A stretch of DNA of 64,000 nucleotides from an uncultured delta proteobacterium (GTDB lineage Bacteria; Desulfobacterota; Desulfobacteria; Desulfobacterales; JAHEIW01), in contig CAVPNL010000006.1 of the NCBI GenBank assembly GCA_963706575.1, positions 544,001 to 608,000 of the forward strand. Reading direction: 5' to 3'. Shown here piece after piece: positions 36,139-58,126 of this stretch (positions are counted from its first letter, which is position 1; each line of letters opens with the position of its first letter). The position numbers and the translations under genes are program-made. Below the pieces are notes generated by a model that did not search any database, was not told the origin of the DNA, and saw only the letters and a program-made list of their open reading frames with translations.

Positions 36139-36603
36139 GCCTGATTTTTATGTCGCACCCGGATCCCTCATAAGATACAGATTTCTATATAAATTATTCA
36201 AAAAACAACCAAACTTGCAGGTTTTGCATTCCGGTCAACCGGATTTAATCCCACCTCAATTCAAGACCCGGATAAGCAAGAGTCAATCCCTGACTCAAGG
36301 CTGACCGATTTATCGATAAAATCATTCTTTTTCGTTGACTTATCCTGAAACTTGTCTTAAAAAAAAATCTTATTCAGTTTTTTAAGTCGTGACTATTTTA
36401 TTGATGATTTTCCAAGATCCACCACAACTTATTTATAATTTAGGCGTTTCGGGTTTTGTAAACGCAGCAGGCCTTCTTAGTCGTGCCAACGATGGAAATA
36501 GCCAGCTAAATCGGTCGGTCGAAATCTCTGCGCAAAGCCCTGTTTGTTCCAGCTAGAGGAGGCAACTGAATTTTTTTTTAATCGCATCAAGGAGGAGGTG
36601 CAA

Positions 36604-37545
36604 ATGGAAACGGAAAAGGCATTTTATGAGAGGTTAGAGAGCAAAGGCGTCTCCCGAAGGGACTTCATGAAATACTGTACGTTCCTGACGGCGGCTATGG
36701 GGCTCTCGTCATCGTTTGTGCCAAAGGTGGCCGAAGTCTTTGCGGCACCGGCACAGCGCCCGCCGGTGATATGGCTGCATTTGGCAGAATGCACCGGTTG
36801 TTCCGAGGCTGTTCTCAGGTCCCAGTACCCCTATATCGACGATTTGATTCTTGAGGTTCTTTCTCTGGAATATCATGAGACGGTTATGGCGGCTGCGGGT
36901 CAGCAGGCTGAAGATCAACTTCAGATGGCACTGAAAAAGTACGCGGGCAAGTTCATCTGCGTGGTTGAAGGTGCCATTGCCACCAAATTCGACGGCGGAT
37001 ACGGTAAAATCGGCGGCCGGACATTTTTAGACATTGCCAAAGACGTAATTCCCAAAGCTGCCGGTGTGATCTGCATCGGATCCTGCTCCAGCTTTGGCAA
37101 TATCCAGGCGGCGAAACCCAACCCCGGCGGATACAAGGGGGTTGGTGAGGTGCTGGGAATCAAGACCGTAAACATCGCCGGATGTCCACCCAATCCGGTC
37201 AATTTTGTCGGTACGGTAGTCAGTTATCTGCTGCTCGGCAAACTTCCCGCCCTGGATGATCTGGGTCGTCCGTTGTTTGGTTACGGGAAATCCATCCATG
37301 ATCAGTGTCCGCGACGGTCTCATTTTGAAAACGAGGAATTTGTGGAGCAATTCGGTTCCGAGGAAGCCGCAATGGGCTATTGCCTTTACAAAATGGGCTG
37401 TAGAGGTCCGGAGACATACAACAACTGCCCGGTGGCCAAATTCAATGACGGCACCAGCTGGCCGGTTGAGGCGGGTGCTCCCTGCATCGGCTGCAGCGAG
37501 CCGAAATTTTGGGATAACTTCACGCCGTTTTATGAGGAACTCTAG
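36604..37545 (+). CDS. Periplasmic [NiFe] hydrogenase small subunit (group 1, soluble)
   Basis: Tat motif SRRDFMK, AECTGCSE, GSC, GCPP, HDQCPR, CLYKMGCRGP, WPVEAGAPCIGCSEP; no C-terminal TM. Confidence 0.95.
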   Translation: METEKAFYERLESKGVSRRDFMKYCTFLTAAMGLSSSFVPKVAEVFAAPAQRPPVIWLHLAECTGCSEAVLRSQYPYIDDLILEVLSLEYHETVMAAAGQQAEDQLQMALKKYAGKFICVVEGAIATKFDGGYGKIGGRTFLDIAKDVIPKAAGVICIGSCSSFGNIQAAKPNPGGYKGVGEVLGIKTVNIAGCPPNPVNFVGTVVSYLLLGKLPALDDLGRPLFGYGKSIHDQCPRRSHFENEEFVEQFGSEEAAMGYCLYKMGCRGPETYNNCPVAKFNDGTSWPVEAGAPCIGCSEPKFWDNFTPFYEEL

Positions 37546-37583: not shown

Positions 37584-39233
37584 ATGGCACAGCGAATAAC
37601 GATAGATCCAATCACCAGAATTGAGGGCCACCTTCGAATCGAAGTCGAAGTGGCCGGCGGCAAGGTGGTCAATGCCTGGAGTTCAGGTCAGATGTTCCGG
37701 GGTATTGAGCTCATCCTGCAGGGTAGAGATCCGCGGGATGCCCACCATTTTGTGCAGCGCTCCTGCGGCGTCTGAACGTACACACATGCTCTGTCCTCGG
37801 TGAGGGCAGTCGATAATGCCGTAAAGGTTAAAATACCGAAAAATGCACGCATCATTCGAAACCTTCTGATGGGCGCTCAGTTCCAGCATGATCATATTGT
37901 ACACTTTTATCATCTGCATGCTTTGGACTGGGTGGATATTGTCAGCGCCCTTTCGGCCGATCCCAAGAAAACCGCCGCGCTGGCTGACAATGTCAGCAAT
38001 GCGCCCTGGGGAGGGGCCGCTTATTTTAAAGGTGTTCAAGAACGGATTAAAACTTTTGTCGATAGTGGTCAGCTGGGACCCTTTTCCAATGCGTATTGGG
38101 GTCATCCTGCATACAAACTGCCGCCCGAAGCCAACCTGATGGCCACCGCACACTATGTTGAGGCCATTCGTCTTCAGGCTCGAACCGCACGACTGCATGC
38201 CATTTTCGGCGGCAAGAATCCGCACCCGCAGTCACTGGTGGTCGGTGGTGTGACCTGCGTCAGAGATCTGAGGCCGGATCGCATCGCTGAATTTTTGTAC
38301 ATCACCAAAGAAACCCAGGAATTTATTAAAAATGTCTATATTCCGGATCTGCTGGCGGTTGCTTCCTTTTACAAGGACTGGGGCGCCATCGGTGGCACCA
38401 GCAACTTTCTGGCATGGGGTGAATTCCCCGAATCCGACAACGAGCCCGACAGCCTCTTTATGCCCAGAGGCGTCATCATGCAACGCAATCTCGCTGGCGT
38501 AAAGATGGCCAATCAGGCACGGGTTTCTGAAGATGTTACCCGGGGATGGTATAAGGACGGCCCGGCCAGGCATCCTTACGAGGGTGAAACCAAACCGTTG
38601 CAGGAAAACCCCCAATACAAACCGGGGGACGGCAAATATACCTGGTTTAAGGCCCCGCGTTATGACGGCGAGCCCTGCGAGGTCGGCCCGCTGACACGCG
38701 TTCTGGTCGCCTATGCCAATGGGCACAAAGAAATTAAGCCTGTTGTTGACAATGTGCTTAAAACGCTGGGCGTAGATGCCAACGCGCTGTTCTCGACCCT
38801 TGGGCGCACGGCCGCCAGAGGAATTGAAACCCTGGTCATCGGTGAACGGGTACAGACCTGGCTCATGGAACTGGTCGAAAACATCAAAAGCGGCGATACC
38901 AAAACTTATGAACCCTATGAAATGCCCGACAGCGGGATGGGGGTTGGCTTAAACGACGTTCCCAGGGGCTCCCTGGGGCACTGGGTCCAAATTGAAAATA
39001 AGAAAATTAAAAACTACCAGTACGTCGTGCCGTCAACCTGGAACCTGTGCCCGCGGGATGCCAAAGGCAAAATGGGTCCGGTGGAAGAAGCCCTTATCGG
39101 CACACCGGTAGCGGATCCCAAAAAACCGCTTGAGGTCCTGCGAACGGTTCATTCATTTGATCCCTGTATTGCCTGTGGGGTCCACGTCATCGATCCGGAC
39201 TCCAACGAGGTTTACAAGATCAAAGCGATTTAA
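37584..39233 (+). CDS. [NiFe] hydrogenase large subunit, 549 aa, read through in-frame TGA (putative Sec64)
   Basis: ORFs 37584-37775 and 37800-39233 share one frame: DPITRIEGH...RSCGV[TGA]TYTHAL...; L2 motif [11 protein letters not shown] plus cleavable tail. Confidence 0.9.
37773..37809 (+). promoter_or_regulatory. UGA codon with bacterial SECIS-like hairpin
   Basis: TGA, 15 nt, then CTGTCCTC-GGT-GAGGGCAG (8-bp stem with one G-U pair, GGU loop at +24). Confidence 0.7.
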
Positions 39234-39424: not shown

Positions 39425-39946
39425 TTGTCTGATAACAGTTCTTTTGACGATATCTATTCTACGGAAATTATGATTCTGGGGGTGGGCTGCATCCTTTTTT
39501 CGGATGAGGGCTTCGGTGTGCGTGTAATCGAAACCATTCAGGAGCGCTACAAATTTCCGGATAATGTTCTGGTGGTCGATGGCGGTGTTCTGGGTGTCAA
39601 TCTGCTGGGTGTCATTTCCAAACCGGACCACCTGATTGTGGTAGATGCCATTCGCAATAAAGGCAAGCCCGGGGATCTGTATCGTCTGTCAGGAGAAGCA
39701 ATCCCGGAGCGCATTCGGGCTAAAAATTCACTGCATCAAGTTGATTTTTTAGAAGCGCTGACCTTATGTCAGGCCCTTGATAAGGTGCCAGAAACGGTTA
39801 TTCTGGGTATAGAACCCGAAGATATAGAGACGCTGAGTACTGAATTGACACCCACCACTCAGTCGAAAGTCGATGCCGTTATCGAGATGGTGCTGGGTGA
39901 GATAAAGCGTTTGGGCGGGTCCTATCAGGAAAAAACGAGTGCATGA
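39425..39946 (+). CDS. Hydrogenase maturation protease (HyaD/HybD family)
   Basis: ILGVGCILFSDEGFGV, VDGG, IVVDA, SLHQ, LGIEP. Confidence 0.93.
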   Translation: MSDNSSFDDIYSTEIMILGVGCILFSDEGFGVRVIETIQERYKFPDNVLVVDGGVLGVNLLGVISKPDHLIVVDAIRNKGKPGDLYRLSGEAIPERIRAKNSLHQVDFLEALTLCQALDKVPETVILGIEPEDIETLSTELTPTTQSKVDAVIEMVLGEIKRLGGSYQEKTSA

Positions 39947-40016: not shown

Positions 40017-42989
40017 ATGCCGACTCGACCTTCAAAACCGTCATCTTTCCGTTCAGCCTTGGAATGGATTCTATCGAAACCATGGATGAGCATCGCATTT
40101 TTTGTAGTGATATCTCTCTTGTTTGCTCTACAAATTCCCAAGCTTTCTTTTCGAACCTCTATTTATGACTTGCTGATCGAAAATCTTCCCGAAACCATCC
40201 GTTATCAAAAGGCAAAAAAAGTTTTTGGATCCGATGATATTATTCAAGTCGTGGTTAAGGCGGATTCTATTTTTGACACCGCCACTTTCAAAAAAATCGG
40301 GGTTCTTTCTGAAGCTTTCGGCAAAATCCAGGGCGTCAGAAGGGTCATCAGTCTGCCCGGTATCCGGCAAAAAGTCGATCCGGGTGGAAACTGGGCCATC
40401 GATCGTTTCGCCAAAGTGATATCGCCGGTCGACCTGTTTAAAAAAAATCTGATATCAGCGGACCAAAAAATGAGTGCCATTACACTGTTTCTGGAAAGTG
40501 AAGCAGTACATGAAAGCGTTATCGAGAAGATCAATGACATCATTGACAAAGATTCCGGCACCCTTTCTCTTTACCAGATCGGCATGCCGCTGGTTTCACA
40601 GGCGCTAGCTAAATACACCATTAAAGACTTTCAAACCCTTCCCATTTTTACACTGATCCTAATTACCCTGACCCTTTTTGTTCTGTTTCGCAGGCCAAGC
40701 CACGTCCTGCTGGTGTTGATGGTTGTGGCCACAGTGCTAATATGGACATTTGGGCTCATGGCGTTGGTGCAAGTGCCTTTGTCTGTTTTAACCATGATTG
40801 TTCCGGTGTTCCTGATCGCTGTTGGAACGGCTTATTGCCTGCATGTTATGTCTGAATACATTTCCAATGCAGGACTTGCCGGAACTAAAAGGGAAGCAGT
40901 TATTGCAACCTTTGCGAATTCAGCATTGCCTTGCACGCTGGCGGTTGTGACCACCCTGTTCGGAGTCGGGTCGCTTTTTGTCAACCGCATCCGTGCGATC
41001 CATGAATTTGCGCTGTTTACTTGTTTCGGGCTGGGCAGTTTGCTGCTTGTGATTCTTTTGCTTCTGCCTGCCGTGCTGGTTTTGATCCCTCTGCCGCCTC
41101 AAAAGGAGCAACGTGTTTCCGGCTTTGGCCGATTGCTGGATCGCATCCTTGATATGATTATCGACATCGGTTTGAAGCACCAAAAAGCTGCTTTCCTTTC
41201 GATCGGGATTTTGTCTCTGCTGGCAGCGGCTGGCATATTCTTCATCCAGGTCGAGACCAATCCCTTCGAATATTTCAAAAAAGATATACCGATCAGACAA
41301 AATTTCGACGACAGCTATCAGAAACTTTCAGGTAGTTTTGCTATCAGTGTGGTAATGGAAAGCCGGCTGGATTACTATTTTGAGAATCCGCAGCATATCT
41401 CTGAAATTAAGCGCTTTCAGGAATATCTGGAAACCCTTGACGGTGTGGATAAAACCGTTTCTTTTGCCGATTATGTGATGCTTGTCCACTACGCCTTAAG
41501 CAAATACGATTCAAAATATTACGTGATCCCCCAAGAAGCTTATGAAACACGCATGGCGATTAATAACTATAAGGGTCTGCTGGGGGAAGATATGTATTCT
41601 CCGTTTATGACGCCGGAGCTCAACAAGGCCAACATCCTTGTGCTGACGCATATCTCGAGTTCGAAAGATCTGCTCAAAATCAAAGATCAAATCCTTTTCC
41701 ACGCGCAACAACACCTACCCGAACACCTCGCGGTTGAAGTTACCGGATTTGCTGTGGCAATTTCTGCCAGCAGTCATTTGCTTGTTGCAGGCCAGACGAA
41801 AAGTATTTTGCTGGGTCTAATCCTCATTTTCAGCATTATGTTTTTAATGTTTCTGTCGGGGAAAGTCGGCCTGATCGCCTTAGTCCCCAACTGTTTTCCG
41901 ATTATCATGAACTTTGGAATTATGGGGTGGATGGGCATTCCTCTTTCAACGTCCACCAGCCTGATCGCCAGTATTGCCATCGGGCTGGCGGTTGATGACA
42001 CCATCCATTATCTACACCGCTATAACACTGAATTTAAGAAAGATTTGGATAAAGACCGGGCACTGCGTGCTGCCGTAAAAAGTGTCGGAAAGCCGATCAT
42101 TTTTACCACGCTGGCCATCAGTATCGGCTTTTTTGTTTTAATGCTTTCTCATTTCCAACCGACGGCGATTTTTGGTTTTCTGATGGTTATCACCCTGCTG
42201 GCTGCGCTTATTGGTGATCTGATCCTTTTGCCGGCACTCATGCTTCACGTTGAACTGGTAACGGCATGGGATCTTCTCAAATTAATGCCGACGATGGGAG
42301 GCATTTCAACCGGTGTTGCCCATGAGTTGAACCAGCCCCTGAACGCCATCAAAATGGGCAGTGACTTTTTAAAGATGATGATTGCTCAGAAGGCAAAAAT
42401 TGAGCAAGCGCATCTGATTCAGGTGGCCAATGAAATCGGCAATCAGGTTGATCGGGCATCGGACATCGTCAACCGGCTGCAGGCATTTGGACAACGGTCT
42501 GATTTTGCCCGACAAACTGTAAATATCAATGATCCAATCAAGGATGTCATGGACATTGTCGGGCATCAGTTGAGCTTAGACAATATCGAGATTAAACTGG
42601 ATTTAGAAGAGAACCTGCCCGCTATCATCGGCCATCCAAACCGATTGGGACAAGTGGTCTACAATCTTGTCTCCAATGCCCATGAAGCCATCAACGAAAA
42701 GAAGAAAATTGGCGCAGATGCCGGTCAGGCTGTGATTCGGATCAGATCCTTTTCAGAAGGCGACCGGGTGATACTGGCAGTATCGGATACCGGAATCGGC
42801 ATTTCAGCCGTCGACATCGGACGGGTTTACGAACCGTTTTTCTCAACGAAGCCAAGCGGTCAGGGAAAAGGACTGGGGCTGAGCATCAGCAATCAGATCG
42901 TGAGGGATTTCAATGGCCGCATCGATATTGAAAGCAAGGAACACCAGGGGGCGACCTTTAAAGTGACCTTTCCCCGCGCCAGGTCCTGA
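40017..42989 (+). CDS. MMPL/RND membrane protein fused to HisKA-HATPase kinase module
   Basis: Two RND halves (IAVGTAY; IAIGLAVDDTIH) then AHELNQPL, NLVSNA, DTGIGI, EPFFSTK, GKGLGL. Confidence 0.9.
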   Translation: MPTRPSKPSSFRSALEWILSKPWMSIAFFVVISLLFALQIPKLSFRTSIYDLLIENLPETIRYQKAKKVFGSDDIIQVVVKADSIFDTATFKKIGVLSEAFGKIQGVRRVISLPGIRQKVDPGGNWAIDRFAKVISPVDLFKKNLISADQKMSAITLFLESEAVHESVIEKINDIIDKDSGTLSLYQIGMPLVSQALAKYTIKDFQTLPIFTLILITLTLFVLFRRPSHVLLVLMVVATVLIWTFGLMALVQVPLSVLTMIVPVFLIAVGTAYCLHVMSEYISNAGLAGTKREAVIATFANSALPCTLAVVTTLFGVGSLFVNRIRAIHEFALFTCFGLGSLLLVILLLLPAVLVLIPLPPQKEQRVSGFGRLLDRILDMIIDIGLKHQKAAFLSIGILSLLAAAGIFFIQVETNPFEYFKKDIPIRQNFDDSYQKLSGSFAISVVMESRLDYYFENPQHISEIKRFQEYLETLDGVDKTVSFADYVMLVHYALSKYDSKYYVIPQEAYETRMAINNYKGLLGEDMYSPFMTPELNKANILVLTHISSSKDLLKIKDQILFHAQQHLPEHLAVEVTGFAVAISASSHLLVAGQTKSILLGLILIFSIMFLMFLSGKVGLIALVPNCFPIIMNFGIMGWMGIPLSTSTSLIASIAIGLAVDDTIHYLHRYNTEFKKDLDKDRALRAAVKSVGKPIIFTTLAISIGFFVLMLSHFQPTAIFGFLMVITLLAALIGDLILLPALMLHVELVTAWDLLKLMPTMGGISTGVAHELNQPLNAIKMGSDFLKMMIAQKAKIEQAHLIQVANEIGNQVDRASDIVNRLQAFGQRSDFARQTVNINDPIKDVMDIVGHQLSLDNIEIKLDLEENLPAIIGHPNRLGQVVYNLVSNAHEAINEKKKIGADAGQAVIRIRSFSEGDRVILAVSDTGIGISAVDIGRVYEPFFSTKPSGQGKGLGLSISNQIVRDFNGRIDIESKEHQGATFKVTFPRARS

Positions 42990-43194
42990 AAACAAAAGAT
43001 GCTTGCGCGCCCGCTTGATTGTTGTTCGACATTATCGCTTCCCTTGCGTTTTCAAGTATGCTATTTTGTGGTATTTTCTAAAAAATCCCCATCACCTTTC
43101 AACCGGCGTTCTGGTGGTCGGAGCGGGCAACGAACTCCTGAAAATCGTTTATTGGCGATCAGCTATGAGTTAAGGTATAAAGGAGACAACGCCA

Positions 43195-44133
43195 ATGTCA
43201 TTAAAATTATTATGGATTCAATGCGGCGGTTGTGGCGGCGACACCTGGTCGTTTTTCAATGCGGAATCTCCCAACGTTACTGAACTGTTTCGTTCACTTG
43301 ATGTTGAACTGCTGTGGCATCCTTCGATTTCAATCCGCAGCCCCGATTATCTAAAAACCATCAGTGAGGAATTGCTGTCAGGCGCCCTGGAGCTAGATGT
43401 CCTGTGCGTCGAAGGGTCCATCCTTCGGGGACCCGGTGGAACCGGCCGCTATGACGAGATCCACGGAAAACCTAAAAAAGATCTTGTGGCTTCATTAGCA
43501 AATCATGCCAGGTATATTTTAGCCATCGGCACCTGTGCCAGCTACGGCGGCATCGGGGCCAATACCGAAATAGAAGCAACCGGGATGCAATTTCTCAGAG
43601 AAGAAAAAGGGGGATTTCTGGGTGAAGATTTCACCTCCCGAAGCGGGATGCCGGTTATTAATTTGCCCGGGTGCCCCTGCCATTGCGATATTGTTGCCGG
43701 GACGCTGGTCGCGATTGGTTCCGGAGCGCAGCTCGAGCTGGATGAATACAACACCCCCGTGGAATGGTACGGAATGATGGTACACCAGGGATGCACCCGT
43801 AACGAGTACCATGAGTACCGTGTGGAAGAGCGGAAATTTGGCGAAAAAGGATGCATGTTTTTTCATTTGGGCTGTCACGGTCCCCTGGTTCGCGGGCCGT
43901 GTAACAAGATGCTGTGGAACAACCGTTCATCAAAGACAAGGGTAGGTGTTCCCTGTTTTGGCTGTACGCGGCCCGACTTTCCGCAACAGTATCCGTTTTT
44001 TCAAACCAGAAATATCGAGGGGATCCCCATAGAGTTGCCCGAAGGGATCAGCCGGGCGCATTACATGGCCTATAAAGGTATGGCCGCGGCAGCCGCGCCC
44101 AAACGGTTAAAAACGAGAAAGACGGGTATCTAA
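43195..44133 (+). CDS. Cytoplasmic group 2-like (sensory) [NiFe] hydrogenase small subunit
   Basis: No Tat signal; LLWIQCGGCGGD, LLWHPS, GTCASYGGI, NLPGCP, HQGCTR, GCHGP, KTRVGVPCFGC. Confidence 0.88.
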   Translation: MSLKLLWIQCGGCGGDTWSFFNAESPNVTELFRSLDVELLWHPSISIRSPDYLKTISEELLSGALELDVLCVEGSILRGPGGTGRYDEIHGKPKKDLVASLANHARYILAIGTCASYGGIGANTEIEATGMQFLREEKGGFLGEDFTSRSGMPVINLPGCPCHCDIVAGTLVAIGSGAQLELDEYNTPVEWYGMMVHQGCTRNEYHEYRVEERKFGEKGCMFFHLGCHGPLVRGPCNKMLWNNRSSKTRVGVPCFGCTRPDFPQQYPFFQTRNIEGIPIELPEGISRAHYMAYKGMAAAAAPKRLKTRKTGI

Positions 44134-44184
44134 CCTGACAGGGTCTTGATCACTACTGTTGAAATATTTGCATCGGTCATCCAA

Positions 44185-45696
44185 ATGAAACCAAAAAAAA
44201 TAAATATTTTACCCGTAAATCGAGTCGAAGGCGATCTTGAAGTCCGGATCGAAATTGAAAAAAACAGGGTATCCGACGCCTGGAGTGCCGGTATTATGTA
44301 CCGAGGCTTTGAGAATTTGCTCATCGGCCGCGCTGTTTTGGATGGCCTGGTTCTGACTCCCCGCATATGCGGCATCTGTAGTACCTCTCATTTGAAAGCC
44401 GCAGCCAAAGCATTGGATATGTTTTTCAGGGTAAAAATACCGGATAATGCTGTACGCATTCGAAATATTACCTTGATTGCTGAAAAGATCCAAAATGATA
44501 TCCGCCACGCATTTATGCTGTTCATGACGGATTTTACAAATCCGGCCTATCAAAAGCATCCTTTATTTGATGATGCCGCGCGGCGTTATCAACCATTGAC
44601 CGGTGAGACCACGGTCGCAACCGTCCGGGAAACCAAAAGAATTCTTGAAATTATCGCCATTTTAGGCGGTCAATGGCCGCATTCATCTTTTATGGTGCCG
44701 GGTGGTGTGGTGTGTGTGCCCAGTACCAATGATCTGGCGCAATGTTTGTTTTTGATACGGAATTTTCGAAAGTGGTTCGAAAACAGCGTTCTGGGATGTC
44801 TCATTGAACGCTGGATGGAAGTCAAATCCAAGGCCGATTTGGATGTCTGGCTGGAGGAAGCCGAATCTCACACACACGGCGAGCTCGGGTTTTATATCCG
44901 GTTTGCGAAAGAAGCCGGTTTGAAAAAGATTGGCAGGGGCTGTGGAAATTTTATTAGTTTTGGCTCACTGGATTTACCAAATGACACCGGCGTTAAACGG
45001 GCAGGGAAAAACCGGCAGTTTCTGCCGTCGGGGTTTTTTCATCAGCTTGAGCTTAAAGCGTTTGATCAGAAAAAAATATCGGAAGATGTCTCACATTCAT
45101 GGTTTGATGCCGGCGAGGGCGGCAAACATCCATTTGACGGTGAAACCCGACCCTATGCCAGCGGTAAAGAGAGTGGAAAATATTCCTGGGCCAAAGCGCC
45201 GCGCTATGATGCCATGCCGGCTGAAACCGGCCCCCTCGCGGAAATGGTTGTTGCTTCCAATCCGTTGATTATTGATTTCATCAGGCAGGATGGCCCGAGC
45301 GTGTTCCTAAGAGAGCTAGCGCGTTTGATAAGGCCGGCTTATTTGATACCGCTTATGGAGCAATGGCTTGAAGAAACGATCCGCTGTCATGAAGAATTTT
45401 ATCAGGATCATCGCAAAAAGGAAAATGGAGAGGGTTACGGCTTGGTGGAAGCCCCCCGGGGCGCATTGGGCCACTGGGTGAAGATTAAGGACGCCAAAAT
45501 TCAAAAATATCAAATTATTACTCCGACTGCCTGGAATGCCTCACCGCGTGATGCGAACGGTTTTAGAGGACCCTGTGAAGAAGCCATTGTTGGAACTGAA
45601 ATCAAGGATCTGGACAATCCGATAGAAGTCGATCATATCATCCGGTCTTTTGATCCGTGTCTGGTATGCACGGTTCACACCATTGATGCAACATAG
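44185..45696 (+). CDS. Group 2-like (sensory) [NiFe] hydrogenase large subunit
   Basis: PVNRVEGDLE, TPRICGICSTSH, GGQWPHS, RSFDPCLVCTVH followed by only 5 residues. Confidence 0.9.
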   Translation: MKPKKINILPVNRVEGDLEVRIEIEKNRVSDAWSAGIMYRGFENLLIGRAVLDGLVLTPRICGICSTSHLKAAAKALDMFFRVKIPDNAVRIRNITLIAEKIQNDIRHAFMLFMTDFTNPAYQKHPLFDDAARRYQPLTGETTVATVRETKRILEIIAILGGQWPHSSFMVPGGVVCVPSTNDLAQCLFLIRNFRKWFENSVLGCLIERWMEVKSKADLDVWLEEAESHTHGELGFYIRFAKEAGLKKIGRGCGNFISFGSLDLPNDTGVKRAGKNRQFLPSGFFHQLELKAFDQKKISEDVSHSWFDAGEGGKHPFDGETRPYASGKESGKYSWAKAPRYDAMPAETGPLAEMVVASNPLIIDFIRQDGPSVFLRELARLIRPAYLIPLMEQWLEETIRCHEEFYQDHRKKENGEGYGLVEAPRGALGHWVKIKDAKIQKYQIITPTAWNASPRDANGFRGPCEEAIVGTEIKDLDNPIEVDHIIRSFDPCLVCTVHTIDAT

Positions 45697-45761
45697 TAAA
45701 AACGTCCTGCTTTCTCTGGCAGTTTATTTTAGGTTTCAGGTTTCAGTCTCCGGGTTCAAAA

Positions 45762-45815
45762 GTAGGGCCGGCCACCGTGCCAGCCTCAAGCGGCGGCCTC
45801 GGTAGGTCGCCCTAC
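45762..45815. repeat. GTAG-type REP doublet (diverged)
   Basis: GTAGGGCCGGCCACCGTGCCAGCC...GGTCGCCCTAC. Confidence 0.7.
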
Positions 45816-45982
45816 TCGGAAGAATATTAGGCATAAGGCAGAAGGAAGAAGTCAGAAAACAAAAAACAGAAAGTAGCCTGCCTTTTATCGTCTGTCATCT
45901 GTTTGCTGTGCTTTGTCCGCTGTATCTTCCCGACATCTGGAATGATGCCTGACGGATTGTTTATTAACCCCCCAGCGCGTGA

Positions 45983-49000: not shown

Positions 49001-51280
49001 ATGCCGAATAACCATGCAGCCAAAAAAATTGAAGTCAACGGCATTGTCCAGGGAGTCGGTTTTCGACCCTTTGTTTACAATCTTGCCAATCAGTATGGCT
49101 TAAAAGGCGAGGTGGCCAATACCGCTGCCGGGGTATCGATTCATATCGAAGGACCGCCGGAGTGCATCCGGGGCTTTGAAACAGACCTGACCGCAAAATG
49201 CCCGCCGCTGGCCCATGTGGTCGAAATAGCCGGTCGATCCGAACCGATAAAGCCCTATGCGGATTTCAGGATTGCGAAAAGCAGGGGCCAGGCCCAAATG
49301 TCCACCCTGATCTCACCGGATGTTTCAATTTGTGATGACTGCCTGCGGGAGCTTTTCGATCCCGCTGATCGGCGCTATCTGTATCCGTTTATTAATTGCA
49401 CCAACTGCGGACCGCGCTACACCATCATTGATGACATCCCCTATGACCGGCCCAAAACCTCCATGCGGCATTTTAAGATGTGCGCGGCCTGCCAGTCGGA
49501 ATACGATGACCCCACCAACCGGCGCTTTCATGCCCAGCCGAATGCCTGTGCCGAATGCGGACCGCATGTCCGCCTTTATTCAAATCGCCGGCAACCGATT
49601 GATACTGATAATCCCGTTAAAAATGCGGCCGATCTCATCCGCCGGGGGCAGATTGTTGCTGTCAAAGGGCTTGGCGGATATCACCTGGTGGCTGATGCCG
49701 AAAACAGCGAAGCGGTCATCCGGCTTCGCAACCGTAAGATGCGCGAAGAAAAGCCCTTTGCCATCATGTCCGCCGATCTGGAACGTATTCGAAAATATGC
49801 CCGGGTGCGGCCCGCGGAAGAGAATTTACTGACCTCTATGCAGCGCCCGATTGTATTGCTGCATAAAAAGACAGGCGGCTCCATTTCAGAAGCGGTGGCA
49901 CCCCGCAATAAATACTGGGGTGTAATGTTGCCTTATACGCCGCTGCACTACCTGCTTTTAAATCATGGGTTTGCCGCTCTCGTCATGACCAGCGCGAATC
50001 TGACTGACGAACCCATCGCCATTGATAATGAAGATGCCTTTGAACGCCTCGCCGATATTGCCGATTATTTTTTAGTTCACAACCGCGACATCTATTTGCG
50101 CAGTGATGATTCCATTGTCAGACATAGCGCAGATCATACACGCTATATTCGACGCTCACGGGGGTTTGTGCCGATCCCGCTGTTTTTAAAACGTGCGGTT
50201 CCACCGATTCTTGCCTGCGGCGCCGAGTTGAAAAATACGATCTGCATTACCAAAGATGACAAGGCCTTTTTGAGCCAGCATATCGGGGATCTTGAAAACA
50301 AAATCACGCTGGATTTTTTTCAGCTGACGGTGGACCATTTGCAGCGCATTCTCGAGATTCGGCCTGAAATAATCGCCTGTGATATGCATCCGGACTATCT
50401 GAGCACGCGCTTCGCCAGAGAACAGACAAAAACCCGCCTTATCGAAGTCCAGCACCACCATGCCCACATCGTTAGCTGTATGGCCGAACACCAGCTGGAA
50501 GGCGCGGTCATCGGTCTGTCATTTGACGGCACCGGCTACGGCAGCGACGGCGCCATCTGGGGGGGTGAAGTGCTGGTGGCCGAGGCCAAACAATTTGAAA
50601 GAGTCGCGCATCTGGCATATGTGCCCATGCCGGGCAGCGCCGCTGCCATAAAGGAGCCCTGGCGGATGGCGATCAGTTATCTGTATGATGCCTTCGGCGA
50701 CGCTTTTGGGGATCTGGGTCTTCCGGTCTTAAAACAAAATGATTCGCAAAAATTAAAAATCATGGTGGAAATGATTCAAAAGGGCATCAATTGCCCGCCG
50801 ACCTCGAGCCTGGGGCGCCTGTTTGATGGTGTGGCCGCCATCATCGGTATCCGCAACCAGGTGAATTTCGAAGGACAGGCGGCCATGGAATTGGAAATGC
50901 TGGCAGCGGGTGATACGGATTCAATTTATGACTTTGAATGGCTAACGGGAGATGGCATCCGGATTTTACCGGCACCCATTATTCGCGGCGTTGTACAGGA
51001 TGTTCAAAACGGGCTGTCAATTGCGCAAATCGGCATTAGATTTCACAAAACCCTGATAGCCCTTTTCAGCGAGATATGCGTGGCCGTTGGCCGGGACCAC
51101 GATTTGAATCGAGTCGTGTTAAGCGGGGGATGTTTTCAAAATTCCATCCTGTTAAGCGGCATGATCCATAAGCTGGCATCCCGTGATTTTGAGGTATTCG
51201 CTCACCGGCGGGTTCCCACCAATGACGGGGGCATATCACTTGGGCAAGCCCTCATTGCTGCAGCTATTGCGGAGCAATAG
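49001..51280 (+). CDS. hypF: Carbamoyltransferase HypF
   Basis: GIVQGVGFRPFV, CTNCGPR, RRFHAQPNAC..CGP, QHHHAH, DGTGYG, PTNDGGISLGQ. Confidence 0.97.
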   Translation: MPNNHAAKKIEVNGIVQGVGFRPFVYNLANQYGLKGEVANTAAGVSIHIEGPPECIRGFETDLTAKCPPLAHVVEIAGRSEPIKPYADFRIAKSRGQAQMSTLISPDVSICDDCLRELFDPADRRYLYPFINCTNCGPRYTIIDDIPYDRPKTSMRHFKMCAACQSEYDDPTNRRFHAQPNACAECGPHVRLYSNRRQPIDTDNPVKNAADLIRRGQIVAVKGLGGYHLVADAENSEAVIRLRNRKMREEKPFAIMSADLERIRKYARVRPAEENLLTSMQRPIVLLHKKTGGSISEAVAPRNKYWGVMLPYTPLHYLLLNHGFAALVMTSANLTDEPIAIDNEDAFERLADIADYFLVHNRDIYLRSDDSIVRHSADHTRYIRRSRGFVPIPLFLKRAVPPILACGAELKNTICITKDDKAFLSQHIGDLENKITLDFFQLTVDHLQRILEIRPEIIACDMHPDYLSTRFAREQTKTRLIEVQHHHAHIVSCMAEHQLEGAVIGLSFDGTGYGSDGAIWGGEVLVAEAKQFERVAHLAYVPMPGSAAAIKEPWRMAISYLYDAFGDAFGDLGLPVLKQNDSQKLKIMVEMIQKGINCPPTSSLGRLFDGVAAIIGIRNQVNFEGQAAMELEMLAAGDTDSIYDFEWLTGDGIRILPAPIIRGVVQDVQNGLSIAQIGIRFHKTLIALFSEICVAVGRDHDLNRVVLSGGCFQNSILLSGMIHKLASRDFEVFAHRRVPTNDGGISLGQALIAAAIAEQ

Positions 51281-51287
51281 CAGCAGG

Positions 51288-51355
51288 AGCCCGCAGGGCT
51301 GCTCTTGAAGCGCAGCGCTCCTATAGGCCTGCAAGGCCGCTCTTAAAGCGAAACG
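51288..51355. repeat. GAGC 9-mer/hairpin array (third copy)
   Basis: Minus strand: TTTAAGAGC-GGCCTTGCAGGCC-TATAGGAGC-GCTGCGC-TTCAAGAGC-AGCCCTGCGGGCT. Confidence 0.7.
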
Positions 51356-51392
51356 TTTTTACTGAGCGCTCAAATTTCCGGAGGAAATTTTT

Positions 51393-52484
51393 ATGACCCT
51401 AAAACACATCGATGAGTACCGAGATTCGGAGATATCTAAACAATTAATCGAAAAGATCAAATCCACCAGCAAAAAGGATCTCCGTTTGATGGAAGTTTGC
51501 GGTACGCATACGGTTTCCATTTTTAGAAGCGGGATCCGTTCGGTGTTGCCGCAGACCATTTCACTGCTTTCCGGACCGGGCTGCCCGGTGTGCGTGACCG
51601 ACCAGGCCGAGGTTGACGCCTTTATTGAGCTTGCGCGCATCGATGATGTGATTATTGCGACTTTTGGCGACTTAATGCGCGTGCCCGGCACCAAGTCTTC
51701 TCTGCAAAAGGAAAGTGCCGCAGGCCGGGATATCCGGGTGGTTTACTCAACTTTTGACGCCCTTGAAATCGCCAAGAAAAATCCCGCTAAAAAGGTCGTA
51801 TTTCTCGGTATCGGGTTTGAGACCACCGCTCCCACCATAGCGGCCGCCATTTTATCGGCCGCCCAGATGGACCTAAACAATTTTTCGGTGATTTCCGCTC
51901 ATAAATTGGTCCCCCCGGCGTTGCAGGCGCTGATGGCGTCGGAGGACGTCAGGATTGACGGCTTTATCTTGCCCGGCCATGTTTCAGTAATCATTGGATT
52001 GAACGCTTACCGGCCTTTTTTTGATCAACATCAAATCCCCTGTGTCGTTGCGGGGTTTGAGCCCATCGACATTTTGCAGGCCATATCCATGCTGGTTGAA
52101 ATGCTGGAATCCGGCAGCCCGGCCCTGGACAATGCCTATCCAAGAGCAGTGACACCCGAGGGGAATACCAAGGCGCAGCAAATCCTGGATGAGATTTTTG
52201 AACCGGCCGATGCCTGCTGGCGGGGCATCGGTGTGATTCCGCAAAGCGGCTTAAAGATTCGTGAAAAATATGCCGCCCATGACGCCCAAAAATTATTTGA
52301 TGTTCAGGTACCGGATGCCAAAACGCCGCAAGGCTGTGCCTGCGGTGAAATTCTCATCGGCACCAAAACACCACCGCAGTGCGCGCTATACAAAAAAGCC
52401 TGCACACCGATGGACCCGGTGGGGCCCTGCATGGTCTCAACCGAGGGAACGTGTGCGGCGTATTATAAGTATCACAGCGATTGA
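51393..52484 (+). CDS. hypD: Hydrogenase maturation protein HypD
   Basis: MEVCGTHT, GPGCPVCV, GFETTAP, PGHVS, GPCMVSTEGTCAA. Confidence 0.97.
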   Translation: MTLKHIDEYRDSEISKQLIEKIKSTSKKDLRLMEVCGTHTVSIFRSGIRSVLPQTISLLSGPGCPVCVTDQAEVDAFIELARIDDVIIATFGDLMRVPGTKSSLQKESAAGRDIRVVYSTFDALEIAKKNPAKKVVFLGIGFETTAPTIAAAILSAAQMDLNNFSVISAHKLVPPALQALMASEDVRIDGFILPGHVSVIIGLNAYRPFFDQHQIPCVVAGFEPIDILQAISMLVEMLESGSPALDNAYPRAVTPEGNTKAQQILDEIFEPADACWRGIGVIPQSGLKIREKYAAHDAQKLFDVQVPDAKTPQGCACGEILIGTKTPPQCALYKKACTPMDPVGPCMVSTEGTCAAYYKYHSD

Positions 52485-52585
52485 ACAAAAAAGTAATGAG
52501 TGCTGAGGACTGGGCATTTAGGGCAACGCGTATAGGCATGGCGTATGGGGCATGGGGCATGGAGCAAGGCGCATAGGGTTCAGAA

Positions 52586-52683
52586 GTAGGGCCGGCCTCC
52601 GTGCCGGCCGAGAAACGGCGGCCACAGAGGGCCGCCCTACTTTCCCTCTCCCTTTGACGGGAGAGGGTCCAGGGTGAGGGTGA
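52586..52683. repeat. REP doublet plus CCCTCTCCC...GGGAGAGGG..GGGTGAGGG palindromic repeat
   Basis: 52586-52640 nearly identical to 10318-10372; followed by a purine/pyrimidine-biased hairpin. Confidence 0.8.
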
Positions 52684-52735
52684 ACTAAAAAAAAGAAAAC
52701 CACAGACAACGGACCACGAACGACGGGCAATTGAT

Positions 52736-53752
52736 ATGACAACAGATAAAATTTTACTGGATCACGGCAGCGGCGGCAAGATCTCCCATAGCCTCACCAA
52801 AGACATGATGCTGCCGGTATTTGATAACGACATACTGGCGGCGCTCAATGATGGGGCCATCTTTGAGCTGGCGGGCAGGCGGCTTGCTTTTTCAACCGAT
52901 TCATACACGGTGGATCCCATTTTTTTCCCGGGCGGAAATATCGGTGACCTGGCGATCAACGGAACGGTTAATGATATTGCCATGTGCGGGGCCATTCCGC
53001 TATATTTGAGCGTCGGACTCATTATTGAAGAAGGCCTGTCCATGACGGATCTTGAAACCATTATCAACGATATGGGCCGGGCTGCCGAAGCTGCGGGAGT
53101 TACTGTCGTTACCGGGGATACCAAGGTGGTCCCCAGAGGAACTGCCGACCGGATTTTTATCAATACCTCAGGGATCGGTTTGATTCCGCAAGACGTGCAT
53201 GTGGCCAGCGACAATGCCAGAGCCGGCGATAAAATTATTTTAAGTGGAACCATTGCCGATCACGGGATTACGATATTAACCCAGCGTGAAGGGCTTTCCT
53301 TTGAGACATCGCTGCAGAGCGATTCGGCACCCTTGAACCACATGATCAAAAAGATGTTTGCGGCCACTGCTGCCGGAGACATTCATGTTTTACGGGATCC
53401 GACCCGCGGTGGTGTCGGCACGGCGCTAAATGAGATCGCTGAAAAATCTGAAATCGGTATCGAGATCATTGAAGATAAAATTCCGCTAAAGGACGAGGTG
53501 GCGGGAGCCTGTGAATTGCTGGGGTTTGATCCCCTTTATCTGGCGAATGAAGGCAAGCTCCTGGCATTTGTGTCGCCCGATTGTACCGCTGCGGTTTTGA
53601 AAGCAATCCAATCCGACCCTTACGGCAAGGATGCCGCGGTTATCGGCCAGGTGGTAGATGATTCTCCCGGCAAGGTCTTTTTGAAAACACGCATCGGCGG
53701 CAAACGGATTGTGGATATGTTGGCGGGCGAGCAGCTCCCTCGAATCTGCTAA
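52736..53752 (+). CDS. hypE: Hydrogenase maturation protein HypE
   Basis: HGSGG, TDSYTVDP.FFPGG, GDTKVV, RDPTRGG, ANEG, C-terminal LPRIC. Confidence 0.97.
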   Translation: MTTDKILLDHGSGGKISHSLTKDMMLPVFDNDILAALNDGAIFELAGRRLAFSTDSYTVDPIFFPGGNIGDLAINGTVNDIAMCGAIPLYLSVGLIIEEGLSMTDLETIINDMGRAAEAAGVTVVTGDTKVVPRGTADRIFINTSGIGLIPQDVHVASDNARAGDKIILSGTIADHGITILTQREGLSFETSLQSDSAPLNHMIKKMFAATAAGDIHVLRDPTRGGVGTALNEIAEKSEIGIEIIEDKIPLKDEVAGACELLGFDPLYLANEGKLLAFVSPDCTAAVLKAIQSDPYGKDAAVIGQVVDDSPGKVFLKTRIGGKRIVDMLAGEQLPRIC

Positions 53753-54818: not shown

Positions 54819-54949
54819 AATTAATTCCATTTTTTCGATTTGACATCATTCACTATTCGGAATATTACTGTATCTCAATTTTCTTCTCTTCCCTACATAT
54901 CGTCCTTGAGTTGCCATGACCGTATAGCTGTTGAACATTGCGAAAGGGT

Positions 54950-57900: not shown

Positions 57901-58126
57901 CGACAATCAAACCTTTGCCCTGCTGATGCCGCATTCATCGACCGCTGATGCACAACTTCTTTGTAATCGGCTAAAAGGTCTTTTTGAAGAAAAATGCGAT
58001 GAGGCCCGGGGGATGCCGGTGAAACTAACCTTTGGGTTGGCCGATTTTGTAAGGGAGAAGGATGAAGGCGGGTCCGACTTGCTTGCCAGGGCCACGTCAC
58101 TTTTAAAAAATGCAGAAGAAGTATGA
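54950..58126 (+). CDS. MMPL/RND membrane protein fused to cNMP-binding and degenerate GGDEF domains
   Basis: RND halves paralogous to 40017-42989; LFHKGEPSDSMY..GDVLGEMGFL...PRSATV; DDSTGLYNR...SRFDNQTF (GGDEF replaced). Confidence 0.88.
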   Translation: MTMRFSFKQMLEWTLRKPLVVISIILAITLFFAWQIRHLSFKTSIYDLQIENLPETARYEDFKKLFGSDEIIRVVVKAENVFDSLTFRKIEQLAEKAAQIDGIRRVISLPGIKKSVDVAGSWDMEKFSAVVTGADLFQDNLFSADGKTTALTLVLKNEANPDDVIQRVRKLIADTSKDLTLYQIGMPLVSEALAEFTAKDFSRLPPITLVLITIILFCLFRKLRYILIPLTCVGLALIWTFGLMALLRVPLSMLTMIVPVFLIAVGTAYCLHIVSEYIACSNRADSPADVTALTFSYIAFPTVLAVLTTIIGLGSLLVNRITMIREFALFSSFGMISILTIVLTFLPAVLSLVPISSKKQNGDIGSPPLFQRYIDKIVELNLKHQKITLPVIGVLVVICLIGIFRIRVETNPVGYFKEDTQVKRNFNDIYQHLSGSFPINVVMGNPEANYFEDPAHLAEIVRLQAFLEKLPGVDKTVSFADYLKLVNYALNQFEQQHYVLPQEGFEVRMAINNFTTMLGQDMLTRFMSPDFSKTNILLLTHISSSKDFVGVRDEILAHVKAEFSKDLVWDVTGLGMAISASSELLTAGQIKSLAITVALVFGIMFALFLSVKVGLIAIVPNIFPIIINFGIMGWFGIELSMVTSLIASIAIGLAVDDTIHYLVRYNREFKTDLDEKRAIRATLTHVGKPITFTTITICVGFSVLLFSSFKPTAIFGVMMVITSLSALIGDLIVLPSLIQHVEVVTLWDLLRLKLGKEPPEGIPLFKGLSHTQVHYIIMAGSLIEIEAGKILFHKGEPSDSMYAIVSGTLDVLDPDSDDASDRELGGHKLINQIKTGDVLGEMGFLRSVPRSATVIATQPVELLKINWKMIKRLQWLYPPTAQRFLFNLMTLICDRLENLTERFSEIKIFDDSTGLYNRENFLKILDSEMKRSRRYHTDLALGFMKFEFDGANPDLSDLAKERILRELGQSFSKAIRDCDTLSRFDNQTFALLMPHSSTADAQLLCNRLKGLFEEKCDEARGMPVKLTFGLADFVREKDEGGSDLLARATSLLKNAEEV

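What the first reader, a model, noticed from the sequence alone, without database searches (positions are those of the whole stretch)
37584..39233. [NiFe] hydrogenase with putative selenocysteine at the N-terminal Ni-Fe BRIDGING cysteine (CGVU), not the canonical [NiFeSe] site
Seen: the large subunit is one continuous frame interrupted only by TGA (37773-37775), exactly where the second Cys of the L1 motif RxCGVCxxxH belongs (RSCGV*TYTH). Fifteen nt downstream lies the hairpin CTGTCCTC-GGT-GAGGGCAG with a GGU loop at +24, geometry resembling the E. coli fdhF SECIS. The C-terminal motif is ordinary DPCIAC. Established: characterised natural [NiFeSe] enzymes carry Sec at the first L2 position (DPUxxC), a terminal Ni ligand. 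The second L1 Cys (E. coli Hyd-1 C79 / D. gigas C68 equivalent) bridges Ni and Fe. Inference: this may be a different natural class of selenium hydrogenase with a Se bridge, which gene callers would split into two ORFs. The intact small subunit, protease and hyp genes argue against a dead gene.
Basis: partly seen in the sequence, partly recalled or inferred. Interest (0 to 1): 0.92.

Follow-up and report, generated by a model that had tools for sequence, protein, structure and literature searches.

The report
Selenocysteine at hydrogenase nickel-iron bridging ligand
The stop-like TGA inside this periplasmic nickel-iron hydrogenase gene is almost certainly a real selenocysteine codon that puts selenium at a nickel-iron bridging position; the variant is common in sulfate-reducer relatives, was already noted from sequences years ago, and has never been studied as a natural enzyme.

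Summary
TGA 37773-37775 is the only interruption of a 549-codon [NiFe] hydrogenase large-subunit frame and aligns with the second Cys of RxCGxCxxxH. That residue is Cys84 of the D. vulgaris Miyazaki F enzyme, the closest solved structure. A hairpin follows after 15 nt (37791-37809).

It is not a private nonsense mutation. The same TGA with the same hairpin occurs in at least 118 of 401 sampled genomes of the order. Cys-type relatives encode the same peptide with a scrambled hairpin: 45% of cells paired against 98.9%, and synonymous-codon entropy of 1.64 against 0.10 bit. The genome has selA, selB, selD and tRNA-Sec, uses TGA as an ordinary stop, and shows no Cys-type paralogue.

The enzyme is otherwise a standard Desulfovibrio-type periplasmic [NiFe] hydrogenase, not a canonical [NiFeSe] one.

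The variant is not new. Takano 2026 states that Baltazar 2011 listed two Group 1 sequences with N-terminal CXXU, and Evans 2021 engineered the equivalent C79U. This scan has also reported it on at least ten other genomes. What goes beyond the papers I could read:
- its wide spread;
- repeated reversion to Cys;
- routine truncation by gene callers;
- UxxU forms in Group 1.

There are no protein-level data.

The parts
36544..37545 (+). [NiFe] hydrogenase small subunit with twin-arginine signal (SRRDFMKY). The true start is probably an internal ATG a few codons downstream of the TTG listed.
   Evidence: TIGR00391 hydA 402.6 bits (cut-off 179.5) and TIGR01409 Tat signal 25.2 bits (cut-off 16.7); best solved match 1h2a_S, E 2.3e-116. 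The Cys/His ligand positions of the three FeS clusters are conserved in the printed alignment, and W-P is kept at the medial-cluster position (residue numbering recalled).
37584..39233 (+). [NiFe] hydrogenase large subunit, 549 codons, read through one UGA (U64). L1 motif RSCGVUTYTH, L2 motif DPCIACGVH, plus a 15-residue C-terminal extension.
   Evidence: translation; 1h2a_L E 4.2e-218 over residues 5-547; below the cut-offs of all NCBIfam equivalogs (NF033181 579.9/600; HysA NF045518 423.2/780).
37773..37775 (+). UGA read as selenocysteine (inferred) at the second Cys of the L1 motif, the Ni-Fe bridging ligand by homology.
   Evidence: the same codon is TGA in relatives, and TGC/TGT in Cys forms; no other letter is listed at this place in 2 DNA and 2 RNA-library runs (40 rows shown, 116 not shown).
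37791..37809 (+). SECIS-type hairpin: 8-bp stem CUGUCCUC/GAGGGCAG with a U.G at the fourth pair, and loop GGU. It lies 15 nt after the UGA and encodes L70-V76 (LSSVRAV).
   Evidence: fold; 98.9% of 552 cells paired in 69 distinct TGA-form sequences, with 5 of 8 pairs invariant; 45.0% of 240 cells paired in 30 Cys-form sequences; synonymous entropy 0.10 against 1.34 bit.
39425..39946 (+). HyaD/HybD-family maturation endopeptidase, which cleaves the C-terminal extension of the large subunit.
   Evidence: TIGR00140 hupD 160.6 bits (cut-off 151.8).
49001..53752 (+). Maturation genes hypF (49001-51280), hypD (51393-52484) and a hypE-like gene (52736-53752).
   Evidence: HypF_C_2, zf-HYPF and Acylphosphatase; HypD 518.3 bits; AIRS/AIRS_C.

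Best explanation
The gene encodes a functional periplasmic, Desulfovibrio-type (Group 1, HynAB-like) [NiFe] hydrogenase. UGA 64 is decoded as selenocysteine by the SelA/SelB/SelD/tRNA-Sec system, directed by the hairpin 15 nt downstream. Selenium thereby replaces the sulfur of the N-terminal CxxC motif that bridges Ni and Fe (CxxU). Shown: the codon, the hairpin, their co-conservation and co-loss across relatives, the Sec machinery, an intact operon, and TGA being an ordinary stop elsewhere in the genome. Inferred by homology (about 65% identity to solved enzymes): the bridging geometry. Inferred from the tree plus the identity of the hairpin: one ancient gain of Sec and SECIS in this clade, followed by repeated reversion to Cys with decay of the hairpin. 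Speculative: the benefit. In the closest solved enzyme, O2 damage releases Cys81 and Cys84 from Ni as a disulfide (PMC10498676, passages). A Se-S bond at that place should form and be reduced more readily, so faster recovery after oxidative damage is a reasonable guess. The engineered C79U variant of E. coli Hyd-1 kept 13% of native activity, the most of the four Sec variants, with a lower KM for H2 (PMC8020662).
For:: single in-frame TGA; it aligns with Cys84 of 1h2a_L; of 76 related loci with a readable L1 motif (77 fetched), 63 have TGA at this codon and 13 have TGC/TGT. TGA plus the exact hairpin in 100 of 401 genomes of the order (41 of 174 genera). All 101 matches start with TGA although the pattern also allowed TGC/TGT, and the reversed-pattern control gave 0; 18 further genomes have TGA at the same codon with variant flanks or hairpins, so at least 118 of 401; stem pairing 98.9% in TGA forms against 45.0% in Cys forms of the same clade. 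One U.G to G.U double change is achieved by two non-synonymous changes (Ser to Ala, Ala to Ser; L095, L096, L098); synonymous-codon entropy at codons 70-75 is 0.10 bit against 1.34 at 92 other codons in 72 TGA forms, the lowest of all 6-codon windows scored in codons 2-124. In 33 Cys forms it is 1.64 against 1.23; selA, selB, selD (itself with a TGA) and tRNA-SeC are present; the genome's own selD has the same 15-nt spacer and a stem with a GGA loop. TGA ends 423 of 1406 long open frames; the only other large-subunit hits to this protein in the assembly are at 30% and 27% identity, so no Cys-type paralogue was found. RNA-library contigs X15 record 10 (37668-37813) and X18 records 19-21 span the TGA and hairpin.
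Against: There is no protein-level evidence of any kind (no mass spectrometry, 75Se labelling or structure). The hairpin's energy is unremarkable (z -0.60; 46 of 200 shuffles fold as well). Covariation proper is weak: 1 pair with changes on both sides, reached by 133 of 500 shuffles, and 5 of 8 pairs never vary. No Rfam family matched (only snoRNA hits at E > 6). The runs laid were Logan contigs, not raw reads, 116 difference rows were not shown, and RNA libraries can hold DNA. The assembly is 91.8% complete with 6.4% contamination, so a Cys paralogue cannot be excluded. The tree used the quick method, its outgroup is not one side of a branch, and the direction of change is inferred, not tested. 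A search for second-shell residues that follow Sec/Cys was underpowered: residue 67 gave 3-4 of 9 independent pairs the same way and 0 against, p about 0.125.
Confidence: 0.88

Rival explanations
1. Private nonsense mutation or decaying pseudogene: the hydrogenase is dead in this organism.
For: Gene callers treat it as truncated. One relative (L134) has an additional TGA in place of a Trp codon, so broken copies or assembly errors do occur.
Against: The same TGA occurs at the same codon in at least 118 of 401 sampled genomes. The rest of the frame is fully open and about 65% identical to solved enzymes. The small subunit, protease and hyp genes are intact. Synonymous change is frozen exactly at the hairpin.
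Confidence: 0.02
2. Sequencing or assembly error: the true codon is TGC or TGT.
For: The genome is a draft assembly of 25 contigs.
Against: Independent assemblies from many studies carry TGA. Contigs of 4 public runs from 4 studies cover the place, with no other letter listed among the rows shown.
Confidence: 0.01
3. The UGA is conserved and recoded, but the product is not, or not always, the Se enzyme. Cys could be inserted through the Sec pathway when selenium is scarce. Alternatively, termination could give a 63-residue peptide, with a separate 477-residue protein started at GTG 37800.
For: A GTG lies inside the hairpin (37800) and opens a 477-codon frame. Nothing here measures what is inserted.
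Against: A 477-residue product would lack both L1 ligands and the proton-gate Glu of the RIEGH motif. The hairpin is conserved together with TGA and lost together with it, as expected for SelB-dependent decoding. selD and selA are present.
Confidence: 0.05
4. Sec is inserted, but the active site is rearranged so that Se is not a simple Ni-Fe bridge (for example terminal on Ni, or part of a Se-S bond with Cys61 in the resting state).
For: In the closest solved enzyme, Cys81 and Cys84 can leave Ni and form a disulfide in an oxidised form (PMC10498676). Se is larger and more easily oxidised.
Against: All other ligands and second-shell motifs are conserved. The engineered C79U Hyd-1 is active (PMC8020662), which argues that the bridge tolerates Se.
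Confidence: 0.05

Closest known systems
Group 1 [NiFe] hydrogenase sequences with an N-terminal CXXU motif (Baltazar et al. 2011, Eur J Inorg Chem; known to me only through Takano 2026, PMC13582414, and Evans 2021, PMC8020662; the paper itself is not held)
   Same: Sec at the second position of the N-terminal CxxC motif of a Group 1 large subunit, predicted to bridge Ni and Fe. Sequence-only evidence.
   Different: Two sequences were listed there. Here the form occurs in at least 118 of 401 sampled genomes of one order, and in 11 genomes of other orders in the phylum sample. I could not check whether those two sequences belong to this clade. Evans 2021 names the substituted bridging residue as C579, while Takano 2026 says N-terminal CXXU; the secondary sources disagree.
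Standard periplasmic [NiFe] hydrogenases of Desulfovibrio (D. vulgaris Miyazaki F 1H2A/4U9H, D. fructosovorans 1FRF, D. gigas 2FRV)
   Same: Best solved matches for both subunits (E 4e-218 and 2e-116). Shared features are the Tat signal, a C-terminal extension with its own protease, all FeS ligand positions, W-P at the medial-cluster position and a DPCxxC L2 motif.
   Different: Residue 64 (Cys84 in DvMF numbering) is encoded by UGA with a SECIS hairpin.
Canonical [NiFeSe] hydrogenases (HysAB; D. vulgaris Hildenborough 2WPN, Desulfomicrobium baculatum 1CC1)
   Same: A periplasmic Group 1 enzyme of sulfate reducers with one Sec among the four Ni ligands.
   Different: There Sec is the first residue of the C-terminal motif (DPUxxC), a terminal Ni ligand. 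Here that motif is DPCIAC. Similarity is much weaker (E 1e-94 to 1e-100, C-terminal part only; NF045518 423 against a cut-off of 780). The small subunit is of the standard type.
Engineered E. coli Hyd-1 C79U (Evans et al. 2021, PMC8020662)
   Same: Sec at the homologous bridging position. The variant is active (13% of native H2 oxidation, the highest of the four Sec variants) with a lower KM for H2.
   Different: It is an artificial UAG/EF-Tu insertion in an O2-tolerant Group 1d enzyme, which lost activity at 10% O2. The natural enzyme here is of a different subgroup and has had long to adapt.
Group 4 [NiFeSe] hydrogenases with N-terminal CXXU, UXXC or UXXU motifs (Takano et al. 2026, PMC13582414)
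   Same: Sec in the N-terminal motif, found by UGA read-through, with a G in the SECIS apical loop, a sporadic distribution next to Cys forms, and mostly metagenome-assembled genomes.
   Different: Those are membrane-bound energy-converting complexes of another group: 47 sequences from nine phyla. That survey excluded Groups 1-3.

Membership tests
Group 1 periplasmic [NiFe] hydrogenase, Desulfovibrio HynAB type | Large subunit with the N-terminal RxCGxCxxxH and C-terminal DPCxxCxxH Ni-Fe ligand motifs | tested here: met
   RSCGVUTYTH (second Cys encoded by UGA) and DPCIACGVH; full-length alignment to 1h2a_L, E 4.2e-218.
Group 1 periplasmic [NiFe] hydrogenase, Desulfovibrio HynAB type | Small subunit with a twin-arginine signal and ligands for three FeS clusters | tested here: met
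   Tat signal model 25.2 bits (cut-off 16.7) and hydA 402.6 bits; alignment to 1h2a_S with the Cys/His positions conserved (cluster assignment recalled from the literature).
Group 1 periplasmic [NiFe] hydrogenase, Desulfovibrio HynAB type | C-terminal extension of the large subunit and a dedicated maturation endopeptidase | tested here: met
   15 residues after His534; hupD-family protease at 39425-39946, over the cut-off.
Group 1 periplasmic [NiFe] hydrogenase, Desulfovibrio HynAB type | Subgroup assignment by HydDB, and a cytochrome c3 redox partner | not testable with these tools
   HydDB is not on hand. No cytochrome gene lies in the operon.
Canonical [NiFeSe] hydrogenase (HysA type) | Sec at the first position of the C-terminal motif (DPUxxC) | tested here: not met
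   DPCIAC, with no second TGA in the frame.
Canonical [NiFeSe] hydrogenase (HysA type) | Membership of the HysA and HysB sequence families | tested here: not met
   NF045518 423.2 bits against a cut-off of 780, and NF045520 254.9 against 470.
Bacterial selenoprotein gene | In-frame UGA aligned with Cys in homologues | tested here: met
   TGA forms and TGC/TGT forms at one codon. 137 loci were examined: 91 CxxU, 43 CxxC and 3 UxxU.
Bacterial selenoprotein gene | SECIS stem-loop just downstream of the UGA with a G in the apical loop, conserved with the UGA | tested here: met
   The spacing rule and the loop-G rule are recalled from the literature. Takano 2026 (abstract) also reports a conserved apical-loop G.
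Bacterial selenoprotein gene | selA, selB, selC and selD in the genome | tested here: met
   all over their cut-offs; tRNA-SeC, anticodon tca, contig C3.
Bacterial selenoprotein gene | Selenium actually incorporated, and SelB binds the hairpin | not testable with these tools
   Needs 75Se labelling, mass spectrometry or a binding assay.
CXXU-type Group 1 [NiFeSe] variant (Baltazar 2011, as cited) | Sec at the second position of the N-terminal motif of a Group 1 large subunit | tested here: met
CXXU-type Group 1 [NiFeSe] variant (Baltazar 2011, as cited) | Same clade as the two published sequences | not tested
   The paper is not held, so the identity of those sequences is unknown to me.

The most novel reading that the evidence does not exclude
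The Se-bridged (CxxU) enzyme is the main or only periplasmic H2-uptake hydrogenase of a large share of Desulfobacterales, at least 118 of 401 sampled species genomes. It would stem from one ancient gain of Sec plus SECIS, followed by nine or more reversions to Cys. The bridging selenium would give a benefit distinct from that of canonical [NiFeSe] enzymes, such as fast reductive repair of the oxidised Cys-x-x-Sec pair after O2 exposure. On this reading, H2 turnover by sediment sulfate reducers depends on selenium supply, and nature has explored the CxxU and UxxU ligand sets in Group 1 as well as in Group 4.
Probability: 0.3. Interest if true: 0.7.

Novelty: new member of a known kind. Interest (0 to 1): 0.5.

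Why it matters
All characterised natural [NiFeSe] hydrogenases carry Se on one terminal Ni ligand, and a 2026 review table of prokaryotic selenoproteins still lists hydrogenase alpha subunits only as UxxC (PMC13188914, passages). A natural, widespread enzyme with Se in the Ni-Fe bridge is a ready test of what each ligand position contributes to catalysis and O2 recovery. It complements the engineered Hyd-1 variants.

There is also a practical consequence. The gene is systematically truncated in public annotations: 55 of the 120 best relatives are fragments. Surveys of hydrogenase diversity and of selenium dependence in sediments therefore undercount it.

Tried and rejected
- **Folding energy as evidence.** Rejected: it is not better than shuffles.
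- **Rfam.** No SECIS-type family matched the region.
- **Co-evolving protein residues.** The top column after the Sec site was residue 67: T or I in 80 of 80 TGA forms, V in 26 of 34 Cys forms. Only 3-4 of 9 independent pairs differ, p about 0.125. Residue 70 is tied to the hairpin itself. No conclusion.
- **One register for the hairpins of the window clade and the second lineage (L136-L139).** They do not share it, so that lineage was left out of alignment A1.
- **Baltazar 2011 by DOI.** Not held, so which organisms it lists stays open.
- **Search for 'NiFeSe' + 'Desulfobacterales' + 'selenocysteine'.** 0 papers.
- **Zhang 2007 (PMC1976440).** It reports a new CxxU in 'FrhA' of Olavius delta-symbionts, but the passages do not say which motif, and the figure is not held.
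- **Reads.** Only Logan contigs were served, so depth, transcript ends and expression level cannot be read.
- **Structure and complex prediction.** Not run. At this level of similarity to solved enzymes, and with Sec folded as Cys, I judged that they would add nothing.

Full report
**Observation**

The frame 37584-39233 (+) translates without interruption for 549 codons except for TGA at 37773-37775. The context is RSCGV-TGA-TYTH, and the C-terminal ligand motif is DPCIACGVH followed by 15 residues. Fifteen bases after the TGA lies the hairpin CTGTCCTC (37791-37798), GGT (37799-37801), GAGGGCAG (37802-37809).

The hairpin alone is not more stable than chance: -11.3 kcal/mol, z -0.60, and 46 of 200 shuffles fold as well. 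The case therefore has to rest on comparison with relatives.

**What the protein is**

- The best solved matches are the standard periplasmic [NiFe] hydrogenases of Desulfovibrio. These are 1h2a_L of D. vulgaris Miyazaki F (E 4.2e-218 over residues 5-547), then D. fructosovorans and D. gigas.
- Canonical [NiFeSe] enzymes match only in the C-terminal part, at E about 1e-94 to 1e-100.
- In the printed alignment, residue 64 falls on residue 84 of 1h2a_L, inside RTCGVCTYTH. Cys84 is one of the four Ni ligands named in PMC10498676. That it bridges Ni and Fe is established knowledge that I recall, and it agrees with Takano 2026.
- The upstream gene is a small subunit with a Tat signal. In the alignment to 1h2a_S it keeps all cluster-ligand positions and the W-P of the medial-cluster site, the standard [3Fe-4S] type by recalled numbering.
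- A hupD-type endopeptidase follows. hypF, hypD and a hypE-like gene lie 10 kb downstream.
- The HysA and HysB models for canonical [NiFeSe] enzymes are far below their cut-offs.
- So this is a standard HynAB-like Group 1 enzyme that differs at one ligand.

**Is the TGA a selenocysteine codon?**

1. Recurrence.
   - Of 77 related loci from species genomes, 76 have a readable L1 motif: 63 carry TGA at this codon and 13 carry TGC/TGT.
   - In an even sample of 401 genomes of the order, 255 have a homologue at E <= 1e-100. Of the 150 best matches listed, 108 hold one TGA and 42 none.
   - A DNA pattern for codon 64 through the hairpin, which allowed TGA, TGC or TGT, matched in 100 of 401 genomes (41 of 174 genera). 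All 101 matches began with TGA, and the reversed pattern matched nowhere.
   - Eighteen further genomes that held a TGA but missed the strict pattern were fetched. All have TGA at the same codon. That gives at least 118 of 401.
2. The hairpin goes with the TGA.
   - In 69 distinct TGA-form sequences, 98.9% of 552 stem cells pair. In 30 Cys-form sequences of the same clade, which mostly encode the same LSSVRAV peptide, 45.0% of 240 pair.
   - In 72 TGA forms, synonymous-codon entropy at codons 70-75 is 0.10 bit against 1.34 bit at 92 other degenerate codons. This is the lowest of all 6-codon windows scored in codons 2-124. In 33 Cys forms it is 1.64 against 1.23.
   - The codon before the UGA is also frozen: 0.25 against 1.71 bit.
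   - True covariation is scarce. One U.G to G.U swap occurs in L095, L096 and L098, made by two amino-acid changes. There are also C-G to U-G and U-A to U-G changes. Five of eight pairs never vary.
3. Machinery and code.
   - selA, selB, selD (itself with an in-frame TGA) and tRNA-SeC are present.
   - The genome's own selD has a 15-nt spacer and a stem capped by GGA after its TGA.
   - TGA ends 423 of 1406 long open frames, so it is an ordinary stop here.
4. No back-up. The only other large-subunit hits in the assembly are a 30%-identical one in the window and a 27%-identical fragment. The assembly is 91.8% complete.
5. Reads. Contigs of two DNA and two RNA-library runs from four studies cover the place, and no other letter is listed at 37773-37775 among the 40 rows shown (116 rows were not shown). 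RNA-library contigs span the TGA and the hairpin. These are contigs, so they show presence only.

**Evolution**

- A quick maximum-likelihood tree was built from 123 full-length proteins: 81 CxxU, 39 CxxC and 3 UxxU. Fourteen of 137 rows were dropped as partial, identical or holding X.
- The tree interleaves Sec and Cys forms. Parsimony needs 13 changes of the CxxU label, and at least 9 are forced by well-supported branches.
- The hairpin is identical across nearly all TGA forms of the 114-row clade. Some Cys forms also keep relics of it: L067 has TGT with 18 of 19 hairpin bases, L147 has 17 of 19, and L023, L024 and L131 have 16 of 19.
- One gain with many Sec-to-Cys reversions is therefore the economical reading. 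The root is uncertain, and this direction was not tested formally.

**Beyond the order**

In a phylum sample of 401 genomes, 15 of the 150 listed matches hold TGA, and 11 of the genomes concerned lie outside the order. Codon-level inspection of 12 such loci gave the following.
- The same hairpin clade appears in three other families.
- One member has both L1 cysteines as TGA (L135, UxxU).
- A second lineage, about 56% identical and nearest the Hyd-1/Hyd-2 models, has CxxU (L138, L139) and UxxU (L136, L137). Its hairpin is different: a 6-bp stem and 5-nt loop, with an A-U to U-A swap between L136 and L137.
- L134 has an extra TGA in place of a Trp codon, probably an error or a broken copy.

**Annotation**

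Among the 120 best database relatives, all those at 88-95% identity are 454-477-residue fragments (55 of 120), named '[NiFe] hydrogenase large subunit'. They begin at the GTG that lies inside the hairpin. The full-length entries of 546-559 residues are 76-83% identical, the range of the Cys-type relatives, though I did not inspect their codon 64.

**Literature**

- Takano et al. 2026 (PMC13582414; abstract and passages) surveyed Group 4 only. They state that Baltazar et al. 2011 reported two Group 1 and one Group 3 sequence with N-terminal CXXU, with Sec predicted to bridge Ni and Fe. They call UXXC and UXXU previously unrecognised.
- Evans et al. 2021 (PMC8020662; passages) mention 'purported examples' of a substituted bridging Cys, which they name C579. 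They made all four Sec variants of Hyd-1: C79U kept 13% of native activity and had a lower KM.
- Zhang and Gladyshev 2007 (PMC1976440; passages) saw a new CxxU in 'FrhA' of Olavius delta-symbionts.
- A 2026 review table lists hydrogenase alpha subunits as UxxC only (PMC13188914; passages).
- Searches for 'CXXU' plus 'hydrogenase' (12 papers) and for 'NiFeSe' plus 'Desulfobacterales' plus 'selenocysteine' (0 papers) found no study of a natural CxxU Group 1 enzyme.
- Baltazar 2011 itself is not held, and supplements were not consulted.
- Earlier reports of this scan describe the same variant on at least ten other genomes, and the UxxU form on two. I reached my reading before seeing them, and they agree with it.

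**Mechanism**

The shown and the inferred steps are set out under Best explanation. The suggested benefit is only a hypothesis. It rests on the Cys81-Cys84 disulfide seen in an oxidised form of the closest solved enzyme (PMC10498676) and on general Se/S chemistry.

**Verdict**

This is a genuine, conserved selenocysteine codon at the bridging ligand of a standard periplasmic [NiFe] hydrogenase. It is a new member of a variant already noted in print, is much commoner than the literature suggests, and is uncharacterised biochemically.

Noticed in passing
window 40017-48073: Between the Sec hydrogenase operon and hypF lies a second hydrogenase pair. It has no Tat signal (small-subunit-like 43195-44133; large-subunit-like 44146-45696, RICGICSTSH ... 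DPCLVCTVH) and only 5 residues after the motif's His. Two histidine kinases flank it: 40017-42989 with MMPL, HisKA and HATPase domains, and 45983-48073 with PAS domains, HisKA and HATPase. It looks like an H2-sensing regulatory hydrogenase module.
   Followed up: partly
L135:481-537 (G646); L136:472-528 (G471); L137:1774-1830 (G547): Group 1 large subunits in which both cysteines of the N-terminal motif are TGA (UxxU) while the C-terminal motif keeps Cys. L135 has the window clade's hairpin. L136 and L137 belong to a second lineage, about 56% identical, with a different hairpin and CxxU sisters (L138, L139). Takano 2026 describes UXXU only for Group 4. Earlier reports of this scan noted such forms too.
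   Followed up: partly
L067:2432-2488: A close relative (90% identical over the 293 residues held) has TGT (Cys) at codon 64 with 18 of 19 hairpin bases intact. This is apparently a very recent Sec-to-Cys change.
   Followed up: partly
G000:C5:349796-350719 (L087) and G000:C3:438965-439886 (L088, L089): The genome has a selD with an in-frame TGA (itself a selenoprotein). A second selD-like locus also holds a TGA, and its match is split into two pieces.
   Followed up: no
window 54938-58126: A 1062-residue protein joins an MMPL/RND-like membrane domain to a cyclic-nucleotide-binding domain and a GGDEF domain. A similar MMPL domain is fused to the histidine kinase at 40017-42989.
   Followed up: no
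L134 (G617:C89), same contig as L030: A CxxU relative carries a further TGA in place of the Trp of AYWGHPAY. This is probably an assembly error or a broken copy, not a second Sec.
   Followed up: no
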